Shown here: positions 3,754 to 45,752 of the stretch, one piece after another
Layout of the letters: every line of letters starts with the position of its first letter
Position numbering within the stretch: the stretch's first letter is position 1
NCBI GenBank assembly: GCA_028712255.1
Contig: JAQTQJ010000008.1
Coordinates: forward strand, 7,773-71,772
Length of the DNA: 64,000 nt
Reading direction: 5' to 3'
DNA from: Candidatus Omnitrophota bacterium
Lineage (GTDB): Bacteria > Omnitrophota > Gorgyraeia > Gygaellales > Profunditerraquicolaceae
Notes under the pieces: model-generated
What the model was told of the DNA's origin: nothing
The model's input: the letters and a program-made list of their open reading frames with translations, nothing else
Database searches by the model: none
Translations under genes and position numbers: made by a program

Positions 3754-3816
3754 ATGAGCTGTGGATCATGCGGACCAAAGAAACCAAAGAAAAAAGCAAA
3801 GAAGAAAAAGAAATAA
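3754..3816 (+). CDS. tiny Lys-rich peptide MSCGSCGPKKPKKKAKKKKK (20 aa), hypothetical
   Basis: AGGAGG Shine-Dalgarno 6 nt upstream of ATG; followed immediately by strong hairpin terminator; no homolog recognised. Confidence 0.35.
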   Translation: MSCGSCGPKKPKKKAKKKKK

Positions 3817-3823
3817 GTTTTAA

Positions 3824-3860
3824 GGGGCAGATCGATAATTTTTGATCTGCCCCTTGTTTT
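3824..3860 (+). terminator. rho-independent terminator GGGGCAGATCgataatttttGATCTGCCCC + T tract
   Basis: 10-bp perfect stem followed by TTGTTTT. Confidence 0.7.
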
Positions 3861-3872
3861 CTAGGAGGCCAA

Positions 3873-4730
3873 ATGCCCAGAACAATAACTTTCAAAGACT
3901 CACCCCTAACTTTAGTGGGAAGGGTTTTAAAAACCGAAACTTTCGCCCCGAATTTTATGGTTATTTCACAGGATTTAAAAGAGGTTAATTATTCGGATTT
4001 TTCAGGTAAAATAAAAATAATCGCTTCATTCCCATCTTTGGATACGCCGGTATGCGATTTACAGGTTAAAGAGTTTAATAAAAGAGCCTCTCAAATATCT
4101 TCAGAAGTAGTAATTTTGGGAATCAGTAAAGATTTACCTTTTGCCCAGAAGCGATTTTGTTCAATGAATGAAATCAAAAACGAAATTGTGTTATCTGATT
4201 ATAAATATTCTTCTTTCGGCATAAATTACGGCTTGCTTATTAAGGAATTAAATCTTTTAGCCAGGTCTGTTTTTATTGTAGATAAAAATGATGCCATTAG
4301 ATATATTCAAATCGTTGGGGAGTTAACTAATCCTCTTGATTATGAAGATGTCCTGAAGAACTTGGATACTGTAATTAAAAAACCGACACTTCCTTTAAAT
4401 AAGACGGCTTTACCTTCTAAATGTATTCCTTGTGAAGGTAAAGTTTTGCCATTACCTAAAGATAAAATAGAAGCAATGTTAGCTCAATCCCACGGTTGGG
4501 AATTAGTAGACGATAAAAAAATAGTTAAAGAATTTAAATTTGTAGATTTTATCGAAGCAAAATATTTTCTGGATCTTGTATCAGCTATCGCCCAGGACCA
4601 GGGGCACCATCCTACACTGACCTTAATTTATAATAAATTAAAAGTTACCCTGACTACGCACGTAGCCGGCGGCCTAACCGAGAATGATTTTATTATGGCG
4701 GGTATTATTAATGAGCTGGGGATAGCTTAG
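3873..4730 (+). CDS. tpx: thiol peroxidase (Tpx, atypical 2-Cys peroxiredoxin) fused to pterin-4a-carbinolamine dehydratase (PCD/DCoH) domain
   Basis: N-terminal 170 aa with SLDTPVC peroxidatic-Cys motif of Tpx; C-terminal 110 aa with E-x3-HHP..Y..H PCD signature (QDQGHHPTLTLIYNKLKVTLTTH). Confidence 0.8.
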   Translation: MPRTITFKDSPLTLVGRVLKTETFAPNFMVISQDLKEVNYSDFSGKIKIIASFPSLDTPVCDLQVKEFNKRASQISSEVVILGISKDLPFAQKRFCSMNEIKNEIVLSDYKYSSFGINYGLLIKELNLLARSVFIVDKNDAIRYIQIVGELTNPLDYEDVLKNLDTVIKKPTLPLNKTALPSKCIPCEGKVLPLPKDKIEAMLAQSHGWELVDDKKIVKEFKFVDFIEAKYFLDLVSAIAQDQGHHPTLTLIYNKLKVTLTTHVAGGLTENDFIMAGIINELGIA

Positions 4731-4731
4731 T

Positions 4732-6401
4732 ATGAACGATTTTTCTGTGCTTATTGGAGGCAAAGCAGGTTTTGGCATTGATAAATCCGCCACAGTAATA
4801 GGGGCAATCTTTAATCAACTTAGTTATCGCACCTATATCTACCGTGATTATCCTTCTCTTATCAGAGGAGGTCATAGCTTTTCCATTGTTCGCCTTTCAC
4901 AGGAAAGAATCGCCACCCATAAAGAAAAAATAGATTTTATTCTTGCTCTAAATCAGGATACCTTCAACTTTCATAAAAATAGAGCTAATGATAATTGTGT
5001 GATTATCTATGATTCAGATACGGTTAAAATAGAGGGAGCGCCAGCCAATGCTCAGCTTCAGGGGATTTCTGTATCAAAGATTATAAAAGAAGAGAATGCA
5101 AATGAGATAATGCTAAATAGTTGCATAATCGGCGCGCTTGTAAAAGCCTCCGGAGTAAATTGGCATGTCCTAGATAGTATTTTTAGAAAAGAGTTTACCA
5201 AAGAGACCGATCTTAATTTAAAGGTTGCACGCCGTGGTTTTGATGAAGCAAAGGAATTTAAAAAGATAGAACCTTTATCGCAGAATATCCTTCCCTTGTC
5301 TACCGGTAATCAAGCAGTAGGCTTGGGTTTAATTAAAGGTGGGCTTAAGGCGTATATATCTTATCCAATGACTCCAACATCTCCTATTTTACATTTTCTG
5401 GCAGAAATTGCTCTTGAGCATCACCTAAAGGTTCTTCATCCGGAAAGCGAAATCGGAGTAATCCTTATGGCCTTAGGGTTTTCTTATATGGGAGAGAAAG
5501 TTGCCGTAGGCACAAGTGGTGGTGGATTTTGTTTGATGACTGAGGGTTTAAGTTTTGCGGGAATGAGCGAGTTGCCTGTTGTAATTGTCGTCGGCCAGCG
5601 GCCGGGACCTTCAACCGGGTTACCTACATATTCTGCGCAAACCGATCTATATTTTGTCTTAAGTGCCGGCCAGGGAGAATTTACGCGTTTTGTTGTCGCT
5701 CCTGGAGATACGGAGGAGGCATATTTCTGGTCGGCTACTGCCATGAATATGAGCTGGGAATATCAGGTGCCTTCAATTATACTTACCGATAAAAATTTAG
5801 GAGAAGGGCTTTTTAATTTTGATATAAATTCTGTATCTCAAATAAAAGAAGCGGTGTCCTTATCGTGGGATGGAAAATCTCCTTACAAAAGATATCAGGA
5901 TACAGAAAATGGAGTTTCTCCTTTGGCTTTTGCTCTCGCTAAAGATGCGGTTATTAAAGTTAACAGTTACGAACATGATGAGTATGGTATAACTACTGAA
6001 GATCCTAAATTGACTATATCGATGCAGAATAAACGTCTGCGTAAGGAAAAATATTTAGCGCAGGAGCTTGATAAGATCGAAACCGTCAAAGTTTACGGAA
6101 ATGAAAATTCTGATGTTAGCCTGCTTTGCTGGGGGTCGAATAAAGGGGTTTGTATTGAGGCGGCTAACAACCTGGGTTTAAAAGTTATCCAGCCTTTAGT
6201 GTTATCTCCATTTCCAATAAAACAATTCCAAAAAGCTTTGGAAAGAACGAAAAAGTTAATTTCTATAGAGAATAATGCTACGGCTCAGCTGGGGCGCTTG
6301 ATTAAAACATTCGGCTTTAATGTGGACCAGAATATTCTAAAATATGATGGGCGTCCTTTTTCTTTGGATGAGCTGGAAGAGTTAATAAAAGGAACTATAC
6401 G

Positions 6402-6405
<4 letters not shown>
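4732..6405 (+). CDS. 2-oxoacid:ferredoxin oxidoreductase, alpha subunit (KorA/OFOR alpha-type)
   Basis: 557 aa; pyruvate/2-oxoglutarate ferredoxin oxidoreductase alpha-gamma fused architecture; start is 2 nt after the tpx fusion stop, stop overlaps beta subunit start by 4 nt. Confidence 0.8.
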
Positions 6406-7193
<788 letters not shown>

Positions 7194-7737: not shown

Positions 7738-8049
7738 ATGGGAAAGAAAAATTTGGTAGTTATTGCAATTGTGTTAATAATTTTAGTTGTTACTATTGGT
7801 ATTGCCTATCAAAGCTATGGATATGTGAAATTAATGAAAAAACAGGTTGATACATTAAATGGCGTAATTGAGCAAAAGGATGTTGAGATAGCCAAGCTTA
7901 CTCAAGAAATAGAGGTAAAGGAAGATGAGCTAAGCAGTGTTAAAGCACAACTGGATACCGTAAAAAAAATAACCAGTGAAGCCAATGTACAAATCAATAA
8001 AGTTATTGAGCAGCCAGTTGTTCAAGAGTCTCAACCTCTTACTAAATAA
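7738..8049 (+). CDS. hypothetical membrane-anchored coiled-coil protein
   Basis: 103 aa; N-terminal TM helix (VVIAIVLIILVVTIGIA) then heptad-like K/E-rich segment; good RBS; strong terminator follows. Confidence 0.5.
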   Translation: MGKKNLVVIAIVLIILVVTIGIAYQSYGYVKLMKKQVDTLNGVIEQKDVEIAKLTQEIEVKEDELSSVKAQLDTVKKITSEANVQINKVIEQPVVQESQPLTK

Positions 8050-23442: not shown

Positions 23443-23886
23443 GTGACAGCTTTAAATCAATCAGCTATTGGAACATTGGTCGAACGTAAAACGCGCTTAA
23501 CCCTATTGGTTAAGCTAATTAAAAAAGATGCCCTTACCGTGCGAGAAGCTTTTAGCGCAAAATTTAACAATCTACCTAAACATCTTAAGAAATCGCTGAC
23601 GTATGACCAGGGCCAAGAAATGGCAGAGCATCAACAATTTACCCAAGAAACAAGCATATTAGTTTATTTTGCTCATCCTCACTCTCCTTGGGAGCGAGGA
23701 ACCAGCGAAAATACAAACATGTTAGTTCGAGACTTTTTTCCCAAAGGGACGGATTTTTCAAAGATCTCAGAAAACAAGCTTCAAGAAGTTCAAAATATGC
23801 TTAATGACAGGCCTCGAAAAGTTTTAGACTGGTATACACCAAATGAGGCCTTTAGTAAATCTGTTGCGCTAGAAACTAGAATGTAA
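23443..23886 (+). pseudogene. IS30-family transposase, C-terminal fragment only (truncated remnant)
   Basis: 147 aa matching the IS30 DDE integrase core from TLVERKTR.. through HSPWERGTSENTNMLVRDFFPKGTDFS..LNDRPRKVLDWYTP; N-terminal HTH and first catalytic Asp region absent; GTG start. Confidence 0.7.
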
Positions 23887-35917: not shown

Positions 35918-37078
35918 ATGTTTAAAGTTTCAAATAAACTAAATTTTCTTCCACCTTATTTGTTTTTAGAGATTGATAAAGCCAAGCGTCAGGCGCGCGC
36001 CGAAGGCAGGGATATCATTGACCTAGGAATAGGTGATCCTGACCAGCCGACTCCAAAATTCATTATTGAAGCTCTAAATCTGGCTGCGCAGGATTCGGCC
36101 AACCATCGTTATGCTTTAGATCAAGGTATGCCGGTATTACGCAGCGCAATCGCAGGTTGGTATAAGCGTAGGTTTAATGTTGATTTAAATCCGGATACAG
36201 AAGTTTTACCACTGATTGGTTCAAAAGAGGGTATTGCGCATTTTCCTTTAGCTTTTCTAAATCAAGGGGACGTTTCCCTTGTTCCTGATCCGTGCTACCC
36301 TCCGTATAAAGGCGGAACAATTCTGGCAGGAGGTAGGCCTTATCTTTTACCGTTGTTGGCATCAAATTCATTTCTTCCCGATTTAAGCAAAATTTCATTT
36401 TTTACTCGTAAAAAAGCAAAAATAATATTTGTTAATTATCCGAATAATCCAACTGGCGGTTGTGCAAGTGATGATTTTTATAAGCAACTTATCGAATTTT
36501 CCGTCAAAAATAAAATCATAATTATTTCGGATTTAGCTTATTCGGAAATGGCTTATGATGGATATAAACCGCCTAGCTTACTAGAGTTTTCAGGAGCAAA
36601 AGAAACTGTGATCGAGTTTCATTCTTTGTCAAAAACTTATAATATGACTGGTTGGCGCATCGGATGGGCATGTGGCAATTCTGCTTTAGTTGGCGCATTA
36701 GCAAAGGTAAAATCCAATATCGATTCGGGAATATTTTCCGCTATCCAACTTGCTGGAGTTAGAGCTTTAGAAGGGCCACAGGATTATTTAAAATCAATGT
36801 GTGCGCTCTATCAGCAGAGAAGGGATATTTTAGTCGAAGGACTTAATTCTTTAGGTTGGCAGGTAATGAAACCAAAAGCGACATTTTATGTTTGGATTAA
36901 AGTTCCGCCGCAGGAGAGTTCCATAAGTTTTGCTGGACGACTCTTAAAAGATGTTAATATTGTGGTGACTCCAGGAACAGGGTTTGGTAAATATGGGGAA
37001 GGTTATATTCGTATGGCTTTAACTGTTTCTGTTGAGAGGGTTAAAGAGGCTTTAGAGCGCATAAAGAAGATTACTTAA
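35918..37078 (+). CDS. dapL: LL-diaminopimelate aminotransferase (DapL-type class I aminotransferase)
   Basis: 386 aa; N-terminal YLFLEI..GIGDPDQPTP pattern characteristic of DapL; NYPNNPTG, SLSKTYNMTGWRIG PLP-Lys; sits at end of dapFAB cluster. Confidence 0.7.
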   Translation: MFKVSNKLNFLPPYLFLEIDKAKRQARAEGRDIIDLGIGDPDQPTPKFIIEALNLAAQDSANHRYALDQGMPVLRSAIAGWYKRRFNVDLNPDTEVLPLIGSKEGIAHFPLAFLNQGDVSLVPDPCYPPYKGGTILAGGRPYLLPLLASNSFLPDLSKISFFTRKKAKIIFVNYPNNPTGGCASDDFYKQLIEFSVKNKIIIISDLAYSEMAYDGYKPPSLLEFSGAKETVIEFHSLSKTYNMTGWRIGWACGNSALVGALAKVKSNIDSGIFSAIQLAGVRALEGPQDYLKSMCALYQQRRDILVEGLNSLGWQVMKPKATFYVWIKVPPQESSISFAGRLLKDVNIVVTPGTGFGKYGEGYIRMALTVSVERVKEALERIKKIT

Positions 37079-37479
37079 TGGTTATTTGTTATATTGGTGT
37101 TGGAACAAATTTGGGCTCTCGTATGAAGAATATAAAATTGGCAATTAAAAAGATTGGCGCTCTTAAAGATACCCGAATAACTAAAATATCAAGATTTTTT
37201 GAATTTGCTTCTGTTGGAGGCCCGGCTGGCCAGAGTAATTATTATAATGCCGCATTAAAAATCCAGACTAAATTTTCCCCTATAAATTTATTAAAAAAAT
37301 TAAAAGAAATTGAAAATGAGCTAGGTCGTACTCGAGGCGTGCGTTTTGGCCCCAGAGTGATTGATTTAGATGTTTTGCTTTATGGGGATAAGTTTATAGA
37401 AAGTAAAAGATTAACTGTCCCGCATCCGCGTATGTTTAAGCGTGATTTTGTAATTAAACCGTTAAAAGAGGTTTTATGA
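37078..37479 (+). CDS. folK: 2-amino-4-hydroxy-6-hydroxymethyldihydropteridine pyrophosphokinase
   Basis: 133 aa; GPRVIDLDVLLYGD and PHPRM motifs. Confidence 0.88.
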   Translation: MVICYIGVGTNLGSRMKNIKLAIKKIGALKDTRITKISRFFEFASVGGPAGQSNYYNAALKIQTKFSPINLLKKLKEIENELGRTRGVRFGPRVIDLDVLLYGDKFIESKRLTVPHPRMFKRDFVIKPLKEVL

Positions 37480-45124: not shown

Positions 45125-45331
45125 ATGATTATTGAAATCGGTATAGTTGCTGGTGAGATTTGGCATTACCTGGACCAAAAGGGAGAGGTTAGTTTAACTG
45201 AGCTGAGCAAGAATATTGATCGTACAAAAGAGAATATTTTAATGAGTTTAGGCTGGCTTGCTCGGGAAGGACATGTCATTTTAGTGAAAACAAATAATGA
45301 CTACCGGATTTCTTTAAGGAAAGATGTCTAA
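45125..45331 (+). CDS. small winged-helix DNA-binding protein (DUF2582-like)
   Basis: 68 aa; IG..AGEIWHYL ... LSLGWLAREGHV pattern matches DUF2582 wHTH family as remembered. Confidence 0.55.
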   Translation: MIIEIGIVAGEIWHYLDQKGEVSLTELSKNIDRTKENILMSLGWLAREGHVILVKTNNDYRISLRKDV

Positions 45332-45752
45332 TTCTATAGGGATAAGTCTTCCTATACCTTTTCAGAAGGAGCCTAATTGTACTAAAAAAGGGATAATTCT
45401 TTTAATCGTTCTAGGGGTAATTCTTTTGGTGGTGACCCTAACTACTGTTATCTTAAGAATTATCTCTAACCAGTCACGTTTAACCCATCATCAGGTGAGC
45501 CGTATTCAAGCCCAATATGCTGTTAAGGCAGGAGTGATTTATGCTTTGGATAAACTACGCAGGAATGATGACGTAGGATGGCCTGCTAGCGGAGAATATA
45601 TAAAGACTATGTGTAAAACTGGTTGTGATATTAATGAGCCAGATCTGCCTAAATCAATTCAGCGAGTAGATATTACTGTATATAACACTGGGACAGGAAT
45701 TTCTGGCACAAGGAAGATAAGCGCCAAAGCCACCTATACTTACTCACCTTAG
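45324..45752 (+). CDS. PilX_N/GspK-like minor (pseudo)pilin
   Basis: 142 aa; N-terminal hydrophobic helix GIILLIVLGVILLVVTLTTVIL followed by QAQYAVKAGVIYAL (PilX N-terminal domain pattern); no canonical G/FTLIE site. Confidence 0.5.
   Translation: MSNSIGISLPIPFQKEPNCTKKGIILLIVLGVILLVVTLTTVILRIISNQSRLTHHQVSRIQAQYAVKAGVIYALDKLRRNDDVGWPASGEYIKTMCKTGCDINEPDLPKSIQRVDITVYNTGTGISGTRKISAKATYTYSP

What the first reader, a model, noticed from the sequence alone, without database searches (positions are those of the whole stretch)
3873..4730. Thiol peroxidase fused to a pterin-4a-carbinolamine dehydratase domain
A complete Tpx (SLDTPVC peroxidatic Cys) is followed in the same frame by a complete PCD/DCoH domain (QDQGHHPTLTLIYNKLKVTLTTH). 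These are normally separate proteins in unrelated pathways (peroxide detoxification vs pterin recycling). A covalent fusion suggests a functional link, for example protection or recycling of a pterin cofactor under oxidative stress. folK is present in the window, but no obvious aromatic amino-acid hydroxylase is.
Basis: partly seen in the sequence, partly recalled or inferred. Interest (0 to 1): 0.55.

Follow-up and report, generated by a model that had tools for sequence, protein, structure and literature searches.

The report
Thiol peroxidase fused to pterin dehydratase
A real, widely conserved gene of anaerobic Omnitrophota bacteria joins a peroxide-destroying enzyme to a pterin-cofactor dehydratase inside an oxygen-defence gene set, hinting that 'orphan' pterin dehydratases protect reduced pterins from oxidative damage, although that function is still only inferred.

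Summary
Window 3873-4730 (+) is one uninterrupted 285-aa ORF with a complete Tpx-type peroxiredoxin (aa 4-164; T58, C61, C96, R131 present) and a complete PCD/DCoH domain (aa 193-282; H245-H246-P247, Y253, H263, D272), joined by a length-constrained linker that ends in a [KHQR]-C-x-P-C-E motif (C184 invariant in 164/164 sequences, C187 in 160/164). It is not an assembly artefact: over 120 protein clusters, 31 species-level genomes and about 20 clusters at 50% identity share the architecture, nearly all from Candidatus Omnitrophota. Public annotation hides it. This locus is recorded as a 94-aa 'dehydratase' called from an internal TTG.

In relatives the gene sits in an oxygen/ROS-defence island (superoxide reductase, rubrerythrin, rubredoxin, flavodiiron protein, Hcp, DJ-1, Grx-like plus TrxR-like, Rrf2, and the same 2-oxoacid:ferredoxin oxidoreductase that follows it here). 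No pterin gene recurs nearby, and folK lies 33 kb away and is unrelated.

The pterin half rests only on the conserved catalytic signature. Rival roles for the PCD half are a Cys-x-Pro-Cys thiol relay or a scaffold. I found no paper describing the fusion. It is a new variant of known kinds and moderately interesting.

The parts
3873..4730 (+). Complete Tpx-PCD fusion ORF (285 aa plus stop codon)
3863..3868 (+). AGGAGG ribosome-binding site, 4 nt upstream of the ATG
   Evidence: read from the sequence
3882..4364 (+). Tpx (atypical 2-Cys peroxiredoxin) domain, aa 4-164
   Evidence: NF001808 177.6 bits against a cutoff of 123. PDB 3p7x E 4e-39.
4053..4055 (+). Codon of the peroxidatic Cys61, within P54-x3-T58-x2-C61
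   Evidence: Conserved in 162 of 164 fusions. Aligned to Tpx structures.
4158..4160 (+). Codon of the resolving Cys96, within FAQKRFC
   Evidence: Conserved in 155 of 164 fusions and lost in several divergent lineages.
4368..4421 (+). Inter-domain linker, aa 166-183, with tightly constrained length
   Evidence: Y157..C184 spans 27-28 residues in 153 of 164 sequences. P171 and L180 are at least 90% conserved.
4422..4433 (+). C184-I-P-C187 motif at the N-terminus of the PCD domain (family motif [KHQR]-C-x-P-C-E)
   Evidence: C184 in 164 of 164, C187 in 160 of 164. Motif table.
4446..4448 (+). Internal in-frame TTG (Leu192) that the public annotation used as the start of a 94-aa 'dehydratase' (P0271)
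4449..4718 (+). PCD/DCoH (Pterin_4a) domain, aa 193-282
   Evidence: PF01329 E 9e-26 over the full profile. PDB 2ebb E 6e-14.
4605..4613 (+). H245-H246-P247 catalytic motif of PCD
   Evidence: H245 163/164, H246 159/164, P247 164/164
4732..6405 (+). 2-oxoacid:ferredoxin oxidoreductase alpha (gamma-alpha) subunit. It starts 1 nt after the fusion's stop codon (stop 4728-4730, ATG 4732), so it is probably co-transcribed.
   Evidence: POR and POR_N domains. No terminator-like site lies between the two genes. The same genes are part of the ROS island in L086, L002 and L005.
6402..7193 (+). 2-oxoacid:ferredoxin oxidoreductase beta subunit
   Evidence: TPP_enzyme_C and PFO_beta_C domains
3821..3856 (+). 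Terminator-like hairpin (15 pairs followed by a T-rich tail) between the upstream peptide gene and the fusion's ribosome-binding site
3754..3816 (+). Conserved 20-codon ORF encoding MSCGSCGPKKPKKKAKKKKK, preceded by a GGAGG ribosome-binding site. It travels with the same island in relatives.

Best explanation
This is a genuine two-domain protein of anaerobic Candidatus Omnitrophota that belongs to the cell's oxygen/peroxide defence set.

Step 1, supported by homology with every catalytic residue present: the N-terminal Tpx domain reduces hydroperoxides. Cys61 is oxidised and forms a disulfide with Cys96.

Step 2, inferred from context: that disulfide is re-reduced by the glutaredoxin-like/thioredoxin-reductase-like pair, or a thioredoxin, encoded in the same island in relatives. 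Low-potential electrons for the island's other enzymes plausibly come from the co-transcribed 2-oxoacid:ferredoxin oxidoreductase.

Step 3, inferred only from the conserved signature: the C-terminal domain keeps pterin-4a-carbinolamine dehydratase chemistry. It acts not in a hydroxylase cycle but as damage control. It would dehydrate 4a-hydroxy-tetrahydropterins or -folates that form when reduced pterins are oxidised at C4a during peroxide or oxygen exposure. That would channel them to the re-reducible quinonoid dihydro form and away from dead-end rearrangement products.

The fusion would ensure both activities are made together and in equal amounts when the cell meets oxygen.
For: - Both domains are complete and significant.
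- Across 164 unique fusion sequences the Tpx residues (T58 159, C61 162, C96 155, R131 161) and the PCD residues (H245 163, H246 159, P247 164, Y253 153, H263 158, D272 163) are almost invariant. Both active sites are therefore under selection.
- Most members fit the published PCD-activity signature [EDKH]-x3-H-[HN]-[PCS]-x5,6-[YWF]-x9-[HW]-x8,15-D. I recalled that signature from Naponelli et al. 2008. The paper's existence and its 'validated in 8 prokaryotes, role in Moco metabolism' summary are confirmed in PMC3223725.
- Recurrent same-strand neighbours in the 31 fusion loci: flavodiiron protein 13, FNR-like reductase 12, PNPOx-like 11, rubrerythrin 10, DJ-1 10, desulfoferrodoxin 9, TrxR-like 8, Rrf2 6, Hcp 5, rubredoxin 13 and Grx-like 9.
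- L086 shows the full island on one strand, including OFOR alpha/beta next to the fusion.
- Plain Tpx occupies the same island slot in other Omnitrophota.
- Without PCD the carbinolamine dehydrates non-enzymatically and yields 7-substituted by-products (PMC9737128).
- folK in the window shows that the organism makes folate, so reduced pterins are present.
Against: - No pterin, folate or Moco gene recurs near the fusion.
- The window protein has Q rather than [EDKH] at the first signature position (23 of 164 have Q).
- All NCBIfam PCD equivalog models score below their cutoffs (85.9 against 137, 78.2 against 80).
- Nested Tpx-only lineages show that the peroxidase works without the PCD domain.
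- In a few divergent lineages the PCD His residues have decayed while the domain is kept (P0127, P0129, P0137, P0139, P0141).
- Formation of 4a-hydroxy-pterins by peroxides in vivo is assumed. The review read here places O2/radical attack at C8a and only electrophile attack at C4a-N5.
- No enzymatic activity was or could be measured.
Confidence: 0.42

Rival explanations
1. Thiol relay. The PCD domain is used mainly as the carrier of a thioredoxin-like Cys-x-Pro-Cys motif on the linker-proximal arm. That motif attacks the oxidised Tpx cysteine(s) and passes the disulfide to the Grx-like/TrxR-like system, as the fused redoxin does in hybrid peroxiredoxins. Pterin chemistry would be irrelevant or secondary.
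For: - C184 is the only residue besides P247 that is invariant in all 164 fusions. It persists where the Tpx Cys61/Cys96 or the PCD His residues have decayed.
- The motif is [KHQR]-C-x-P-C-E, with Pro in the same position as in thioredoxin's CGPC.
- Five lineages have lost the Tpx resolving Cys96 but keep CxPC (L028, P0124, P0128, P0131, P0148).
- Linker length is fixed.
- Some members add an N-terminal rhodanese module with a YC-x4-C loop.
- The AF2 model places C184 just before a short helix at 187-190.
Against: - The same CxPC/CxxC motif occurs in true standalone PCDs in unrelated contexts (P0370 CIPC, P0381 CVPC). It therefore predates the fusion and is not specific to Tpx.
- The relay model does not explain why the PCD His-His-Pro, His and Asp residues are near-invariant.
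- A dedicated Grx-like/TrxR-like pair is already present with both plain Tpx and the fusion.
- The Tpx-DsrC-like fusion in L044 lacks the canonical DsrC cysteines, so 'Cys modules on Tpx' is not a general rule.
- C187 loss tends to coincide with PCD His decay (3 of 5 cases), which links CxPC to the PCD site rather than to Tpx.
- No coordinates were available to measure Cys-Cys distances.
Confidence: 0.22
2. Scaffold. The PCD domain acts as a non-catalytic oligomerisation or partner-binding module, as in DCoH with HNF1 or the PCD-like RuBisCO assembly factors. It would stabilise a Tpx oligomer or dock the protein to another island component.
For: - PCD-fold proteins with non-enzymatic roles are known (my own knowledge; RAF2 as a COG2154 member appears in PMC5972614, listed).
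- Lineages L037, L040 and P0140 (and P0142, P0145) keep a tail of about 85 aa whose pattern aligns in register with PCD but lacks the Cys and His residues.
- The PCD half is unusually conserved (about 70-79% identity among close members), as expected for an interaction surface.
Against: - A scaffold does not need the catalytic His-His-Pro/His/Asp residues, yet they are near-invariant in the main clade.
- The hhalign support for degenerate PCD tails is weak (probability 26%).
- No partner has been identified.
Confidence: 0.13
3. Classical recycling. The PCD domain recycles the pterin cofactor of an aromatic amino-acid hydroxylase or another unrecognised pterin-dependent oxygenase encoded elsewhere in the genome. 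The fusion to Tpx would then only serve co-expression.
For: - The catalytic signature is intact.
- This is the only experimentally established PCD function (established knowledge).
Against: - The hosts are anaerobes and the gene sits among oxygen-detoxifying genes, not oxygen-using ones.
- No hydroxylase is seen in 64 kb of window or in about 16 kb around each of 31 loci.
- Many prokaryotes with active PCD lack any such hydroxylase (Naponelli 2008, from memory; summarised in PMC3223725).
- Whole genomes could not be searched here.
Confidence: 0.06
4. Artefact. The ORF would be an assembly or frameshift artefact, or really two genes, as the public annotation of a separate 94-aa dehydratase suggests.
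For: - Public records list 'standalone' dehydratases of 91-180 aa that are 65-99% identical to this domain.
- L039 and L059 are split.
Against: - Those records map inside continuous fusion ORFs in the window, L001, L004, L012 and L027. Their first residue replaces an internal L, V or M at varying positions, so they are nested gene calls.
- The two split loci come from assemblies of about 1x coverage.
- The same ORF, with constant linker length, is seen in over 120 clusters from four data sources.
Confidence: 0.01

Closest known systems
Tpx (thiol peroxidase, p20/scavengase), the atypical 2-Cys peroxiredoxin subfamily; solved examples S. aureus 3p7x, B. subtilis 2jsy, E. coli 1qxh
   Same: Residues 4-164 align end to end (E 4e-39). 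The P-x3-T-x2-C motif, the resolving Cys about 35 residues later, and the conserved Arg are all present. The NCBIfam equivalog scores above its cutoff.
   Different: Canonical Tpx is a single-domain protein of about 165 aa. This one carries an 18-aa linker and a 100-aa PCD domain. Some relatives add a rhodanese or ferritin-like N-terminal module.
Partnerless bacterial PCD/PhhB proteins (COG2154, PF01329) with an N-terminal CxxC
   Same: Full-length Pterin_4a match. The His-His-Pro, aromatic, His and Asp signature is present. The CxxC sits ahead of the first strand, as in standalone P0370 and P0381.
   Different: It is fused to a peroxiredoxin. The window protein has Gln at the first signature position. 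All NCBIfam PCD equivalogs fall below their cutoffs. No hydroxylase or Moco context was found.
Hybrid peroxiredoxins with a fused redoxin (for example Haemophilus influenzae Prx5-glutaredoxin), and the Clostridium pasteurianum Cp34 (TrxR-like)/Cp9 (Grx-like)/Cp20 peroxiredoxin system. Both are cited from my own knowledge.
   Same: A peroxiredoxin carries a C-terminal add-on bearing a Cys-x-x-Cys. A Grx-like plus TrxR-like gene pair lies in the same island.
   Different: The add-on has a PCD fold, not a thioredoxin fold. Its CxPC also exists in standalone PCDs. No evidence yet shows that it exchanges electrons with Tpx.
Non-catalytic PCD-fold proteins (DCoH as HNF1 cofactor; plant RAF2 and carboxysomal acRAF)
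   Same: The same fold is used as an accessory module. Possibly degenerate PCD-like tails occur on Tpx in L037, L040 and P0140.
   Different: Those proteins, or those roles, do not require the catalytic histidines. The main fusion clade retains them almost without exception.

Membership tests
Tpx subfamily of peroxiredoxins | Thioredoxin-fold Prx domain matched by family models above curated thresholds | tested here: met
   NF001808 177.6 bits against 123. PF08534 74.9 bits against 26.6.
Tpx subfamily of peroxiredoxins | P-x3-T-x2-C motif with the peroxidatic Cys, plus the conserved active-site Arg | tested here: met
   P54, T58, C61 and R131 are present in the window and conserved in 148-162 of 164 relatives.
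Tpx subfamily of peroxiredoxins | Resolving Cys about 34-35 residues after the peroxidatic Cys (atypical 2-Cys mechanism) | tested here: met
   C96 in FAQKRFC aligns with FAQKRWC of solved Tpx. Conserved in 155 of 164.
Tpx subfamily of peroxiredoxins | Thiol-dependent hydroperoxide reductase activity | not testable with these tools
   Needs an enzyme assay.
PCD/DCoH (PF01329, COG2154) | Full-length match to the Pterin_4a model above the gathering score | tested here: met
   90.2 bits against 26, profile positions 2-91 of 91.
PCD/DCoH (PF01329, COG2154) | PCD-activity signature [EDKH]-x3-H-[HN]-[PCS]-x5,6-[YWF]-x9-[HW]-x8,15-D (Naponelli 2008, recalled from memory) | tested here: inconclusive
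   In the window protein, H245-H246-P247, Y253, H263 and D272 fit with correct spacing, but the first position is Q241. 134 of 164 relatives have E there and fit fully.
PCD/DCoH (PF01329, COG2154) | NCBIfam 4a-hydroxytetrahydrobiopterin dehydratase equivalog score above cutoff | tested here: not met
   Best scores are 85.9 against 137 (NF002019) and 78.2 against 80 (NF002017). These cutoffs were set for standalone proteins.
PCD/DCoH (PF01329, COG2154) | Dehydratase activity on 4a-hydroxytetrahydropterins, and a pterin-dependent partner enzyme in the genome | not testable with these tools
None was seen in the 64-kb window or the loci.
Hybrid peroxiredoxin-redoxin fusions | The fused domain is a thioredoxin-fold redoxin (Grx/Trx) with a redox-active CxxC | tested here: not met
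   The fused domain is Pterin_4a, with no Trx or Grx family hit. A CxPC motif exists, but in a different fold.
Anaerobe oxygen/ROS-defence gene island | Co-location with superoxide reductase, rubrerythrin, rubredoxin, flavodiiron protein and thiol reductases | tested here: met
   Met for the family: 8-13 of 31 loci per component, and the complete island in L086. In the window itself only the OFOR pair and the Cys-Lys peptide gene are adjacent.

The most novel reading that the evidence does not exclude
The two halves act in sequence on one substrate class. Tpx, a peroxiredoxin that prefers organic hydroperoxides, would reduce a 4a-hydroperoxy-tetrahydropterin or -folate, or intercept the peroxide that would oxidise C4a, to give the 4a-carbinolamine. 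The fused PCD domain would dehydrate that product at once. The CxPC dithiol might then re-reduce the quinonoid product. Together these steps would form a self-contained repair enzyme for oxidised pterin cofactors in anaerobes. If true, it would give the first physiological explanation for 'partnerless' PCDs and for their conserved N-terminal CxxC.
Probability: 0.15. Interest if true: 0.8.

Novelty: new variant of a known kind. Interest (0 to 1): 0.5.

Why it matters
COG2154/PCD proteins are active in many organisms that have no aromatic amino-acid hydroxylase, and their role there has been open since 2008.

This is a phylum-wide, selection-maintained fusion of such a PCD to a peroxidase, placed in an oxygen-defence island. 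It is a Rosetta-stone link that turns 'PCD protects reduced pterins during oxidative stress' into a hypothesis testable with one recombinant protein.

It also adds a new accessory-domain type to the peroxiredoxins. And it exposes a systematic annotation error: nested 'dehydratase' gene calls remove the peroxidase half from public proteomes of these genomes.

Tried and rejected
1. Literature. No paper in the library mentions PCD together with peroxiredoxin or thiol peroxidase. The key COG2154 paper (Naponelli 2008) is not held, so its signature motif is cited from memory and only its existence and summary are confirmed.
2. The public 'standalone' Omnitrophota PCDs were first taken as evidence for separate genes. 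I rejected that reading after mapping them inside continuous fusion ORFs. P0271's contig could not be retrieved.
3. The context of true standalone CxxC-PCDs (P0370, P0381) is housekeeping and uninformative.
4. No solved PCD structure covers the CxxC segment.
5. The AF2 model from 26 close sequences was only moderate (pLDDT 71.7, pTM 0.66, with a weak Tpx active-site loop). No coordinates are exposed, so Cys-Cys and domain-domain distances could not be measured. I did not use the second structure job or fold search because they could not answer that question.
6. I considered a general rule that Tpx add-ons in anaerobes are Cys-bearing redox modules. The rhodanese fusions fit, but the L044 DsrC-like tail lacks the canonical cysteines, so I dropped the idea as a rule.
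7. The profile comparison of the L037/L040/P0140 tails with PCD was in register but weak (probability 26%), so I left it as inconclusive.
8. OFOR adjacency looked window-specific at first (5 loci). It was later explained as part of the island.
9. The promoter scan gave no more sites than shuffled sequence.

Full report
**1. Observation**

The window has one uninterrupted ORF at 3873..4730 on the + strand. It encodes 285 aa, starts with ATG, and has an AGGAGG ribosome-binding site at 3863-3868.

- Pfam finds Redoxin/AhpC-TSA over aa 25-161 (E 7e-21 and 1e-18) and Pterin_4a over aa 193-282. The Pterin_4a hit covers the whole profile (E 9e-26, 90.2 bits against a gathering score of 26).
- The NCBIfam thiol-peroxidase equivalog NF001808 scores 177.6 bits against a cutoff of 123 over aa 4-164.
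- The five PCD equivalog models all match but stay below their cutoffs, which were set for standalone proteins (best 85.9 against 137 and 78.2 against 80).
- Solved relatives are Tpx structures (3p7x, 2jsy; E about 4e-39) and PCD structures (2ebb, E 6e-14).

**2. Not an artefact, but hidden by annotation**

- The best 120 homologue clusters (68-87% identity, from NCBI, JGI, ENA and Logan assemblies) all have both domains and are 270-298 aa long. Where named, they are 'thiol peroxidase [Candidatus Omnitrophota]'.
- A scan of species-representative genomes returned 31 loci with the in-frame fusion. Two of them (L039, L059) are split only in assemblies of about 1x coverage.
- An exhaustive search of 50%-identity representatives found about 20 clusters with the full architecture, down to 32% identity.
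- The junction length is fixed: 27-28 residues from Y157 to C184 in 153 of 164 sequences.

A search with the PCD half alone returned many 'standalone' 4a-hydroxytetrahydrobiopterin dehydratases of 91-180 aa from Omnitrophota. Mapping them showed that P0271 (94 aa) is residues 192-285 of this window's protein, with an internal TTG (4446-4448) read as Met. P0280, P0281, P0315 and P0339 lie in the same way inside continuous fusion ORFs of L004, L001, L012 and L027. The internal 'starts' differ in position and codon, so they are gene-calling artefacts. No full-length copy of the window protein is in the protein collection (the best hit is 85% identical). The peroxidase half of this locus therefore appears to be missing from the public proteome.

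**3. Anatomy and conservation**

In an alignment of 26 members and a table of 164 unique fusions, these positions are nearly invariant:

| Half | Residue counts out of 164 |
|---|---|
| Tpx | T58 159, C61 162, C96 155, R131 161 |
| PCD | H245 163, H246 159, P247 164, Y253 153, H263 158, D272 163 |
| CxPC motif | C184 164, C187 160 |

- Most members have Glu at position 241 and fit the PCD-activity signature (recalled from Naponelli 2008). The window protein has Gln there.
- The domain begins with the motif [KHQR]-C-x-P-C-E.
- True standalone PCDs with the same motif exist (P0370 CIPC, P0381 CVPC), so the motif predates the fusion. No solved PCD structure covers it.
- Divergent lineages decay in different ways. 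Five lose the resolving Cys96 but keep CxPC and the His residues (L028, P0124, P0128, P0131, P0148). Two lose the peroxidatic Cys (P0139, P0168). Five lose the PCD histidines (P0127, P0129, P0137, P0139, P0141).
- Some members add an N-terminal rhodanese domain (P0122, P0128, L020, L027), and one adds a weak rubrerythrin-like domain (P0125).

**4. Context**

In the window, a 2-oxoacid:ferredoxin oxidoreductase alpha/beta pair follows the gene. Its ATG (4732) lies 1 nt after the fusion's stop codon (4728-4730), with no terminator-like site between them. A 20-codon Cys/Lys-rich ORF and a strong hairpin precede the gene. The rest of the annotated window (about 39 kb) is housekeeping. folK (37078-37479) sits in a lysine/pantothenate block.

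Across the 31 fusion loci, these same-strand neighbours recur:

| Neighbour | Loci (of 31) |
|---|---|
| Flavodiiron protein | 13 |
| Rubredoxin | 13 |
| FNR-like flavin reductase | 12 |
| PNPOx-like flavoprotein | 11 |
| Rubrerythrin | 10 |
| DJ-1/PfpI | 10 |
| Desulfoferrodoxin (superoxide reductase) | 9 |
| Glutaredoxin-like protein | 9 |
| Thioredoxin-reductase-like protein | 8 |
| Rrf2 regulator | 6 |
| Hybrid-cluster protein (Hcp) | 5 |

Locus L086 shows the whole set on one strand: Rrf2 - Hcp - SOR - ferritin-like - ferredoxin - PEBP - OFOR alpha/beta - rubredoxin - Tpx-PCD - DJ-1 - FNR-like - FDP - PNPOx-like - rubrerythrin - Grx-like - TrxR-like - Rrf2. The OFOR pair in the window is therefore a piece of this island.

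Omnitrophota with a plain Tpx have it in the same island (L029-L035, L037, L040, L047). In a crude neighbour-joining tree of Tpx domains, with no support values, the fusions form one clade and two Tpx-only groups are nested inside it. This suggests one gain and later losses. No pterin, folate or molybdopterin gene recurs near the fusion.

**5. Mechanism**

- Supported by homology: a functional Tpx-type peroxidase site.
- Supported by context: membership of the oxygen/ROS-defence set, with a Grx-like/TrxR-like pair as a probable reductant. That pair is analogous to the Clostridium pasteurianum Cp34/Cp9 system, which I cite from my own knowledge.
- Inferred: the PCD half keeps dehydratase chemistry, because its catalytic signature is under selection. 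In an anaerobe with no hydroxylase context, it would serve damage control for reduced pterins or folates oxidised at C4a. The literature read here confirms that without PCD the carbinolamine decays non-enzymatically to 7-substituted by-products (PMC9737128). It also confirms that prokaryotic COG2154 proteins were validated as PCDs with a proposed Moco-related role (PMC3223725).

Rivals:
- A thiol-relay role for the invariant CxPC. This would explain C184 and the losses of Cys96, but not the histidines, and the motif is not fusion-specific.
- A scaffold role. This is supported weakly by tails that may be degenerate PCD domains in L037, L040 and P0140 (hhalign probability 26%, in register).
- Classical hydroxylase-coupled recycling, which is unlikely in this context and could not be tested genome-wide.
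- Artefact, which is effectively excluded.

**6. Comparison and novelty**

Each half is a clear member of a known family: the Tpx half fully, and the PCD half by Pfam and signature but not by the NCBIfam equivalog cutoffs. The combination resembles hybrid peroxiredoxin-redoxin fusions in layout, but the added domain does not have a thioredoxin fold. I found no description of the fusion in the searchable literature. It is a new variant of known kinds.

Its value is as a Rosetta-stone clue to the open question of what partnerless PCDs do. It is also a correction to public annotation.

**7. Verdict**

Interest is moderate (0.5). The most novel reading not excluded, sequential peroxide-to-carbinolamine-to-quinonoid repair of pterins, has a probability of about 0.15.

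Noticed in passing
window 3754-3816 (+); also L001 10143, L002 2549, L003 16270, L005 3592, L015 10138, L086 4298: A conserved 20-codon ORF encodes MSCGSCGPKKPKKKAKKKKK: a CxxCG knuckle, like half a rubredoxin site, plus a poly-Lys tail. It has a GGAGG ribosome-binding site and a terminator-like hairpin (3821-3856). It travels with the ROS-defence island, often right after the flavodiiron gene, and gene callers do not call it.
   Followed up: partly
window 4446-4730 (P0271); L001, L004, L012, L027: Public records annotate a 'standalone' 4a-hydroxytetrahydrobiopterin dehydratase from internal TTG, GTG or ATG codons inside continuous Tpx-PCD ORFs. This is a systematic annotation error that drops the peroxidase half.
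   Followed up: yes
L044 7923-8846 (Thermodesulfovibrio MAG): A Tpx is fused to a DsrC-like domain (PF04358, E 7e-17). Its C-terminus (…LAGLPRPDGLV…) lacks the canonical DsrC cysteines.
   Followed up: partly
L020 7633-8838, L027 7554-8837; proteins P0122, P0128, P0125: Three-domain variants exist. Rhodanese-Tpx-PCD has a rhodanese loop YC-x4-C-xAS. One protein is ferritin/rubrerythrin-like-Tpx-PCD (weak, E 1.5e-4).
   Followed up: partly
L037 4306-5055, L040 7989-8741; P0140, P0142, P0145: These Tpx proteins have a C-terminal tail of about 85 aa with no Pfam hit. It aligns weakly but in register with PCD (hhalign probability 26%) and lacks the CxPC and His residues. The tails may be degenerate PCD domains.
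   Followed up: partly
proteins P0136, P0153, P0180 (representative library): P0136 and P0153 are tandem Tpx-Tpx proteins of 385-451 aa. P0180 is a 554-aa protein with four tandem Pterin_4a domains, a signal-like N-terminus and a C-terminal hydrophobic segment.
   Followed up: no
L086 1-16855 (JGI/NCBI contig of 124 kb): A complete single-strand oxygen/ROS-defence island of Omnitrophota that includes a 2-oxoacid:ferredoxin oxidoreductase, ferredoxin and a PEBP-family protein. This suggests OFOR supplies the island with low-potential electrons.
   Followed up: partly
window 23-39229 and beyond: Every annotated gene in at least the first 39 kb is on the + strand, and the genes are tightly packed. 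An integrase-core fragment (rve, E 4e-7, below the gathering score) lies at 23443-23886 between the rpsI and arg genes. The ORFs at 7738-8049 (103 aa) and 45324-45752 (142 aa) have no Pfam match.
   Followed up: no
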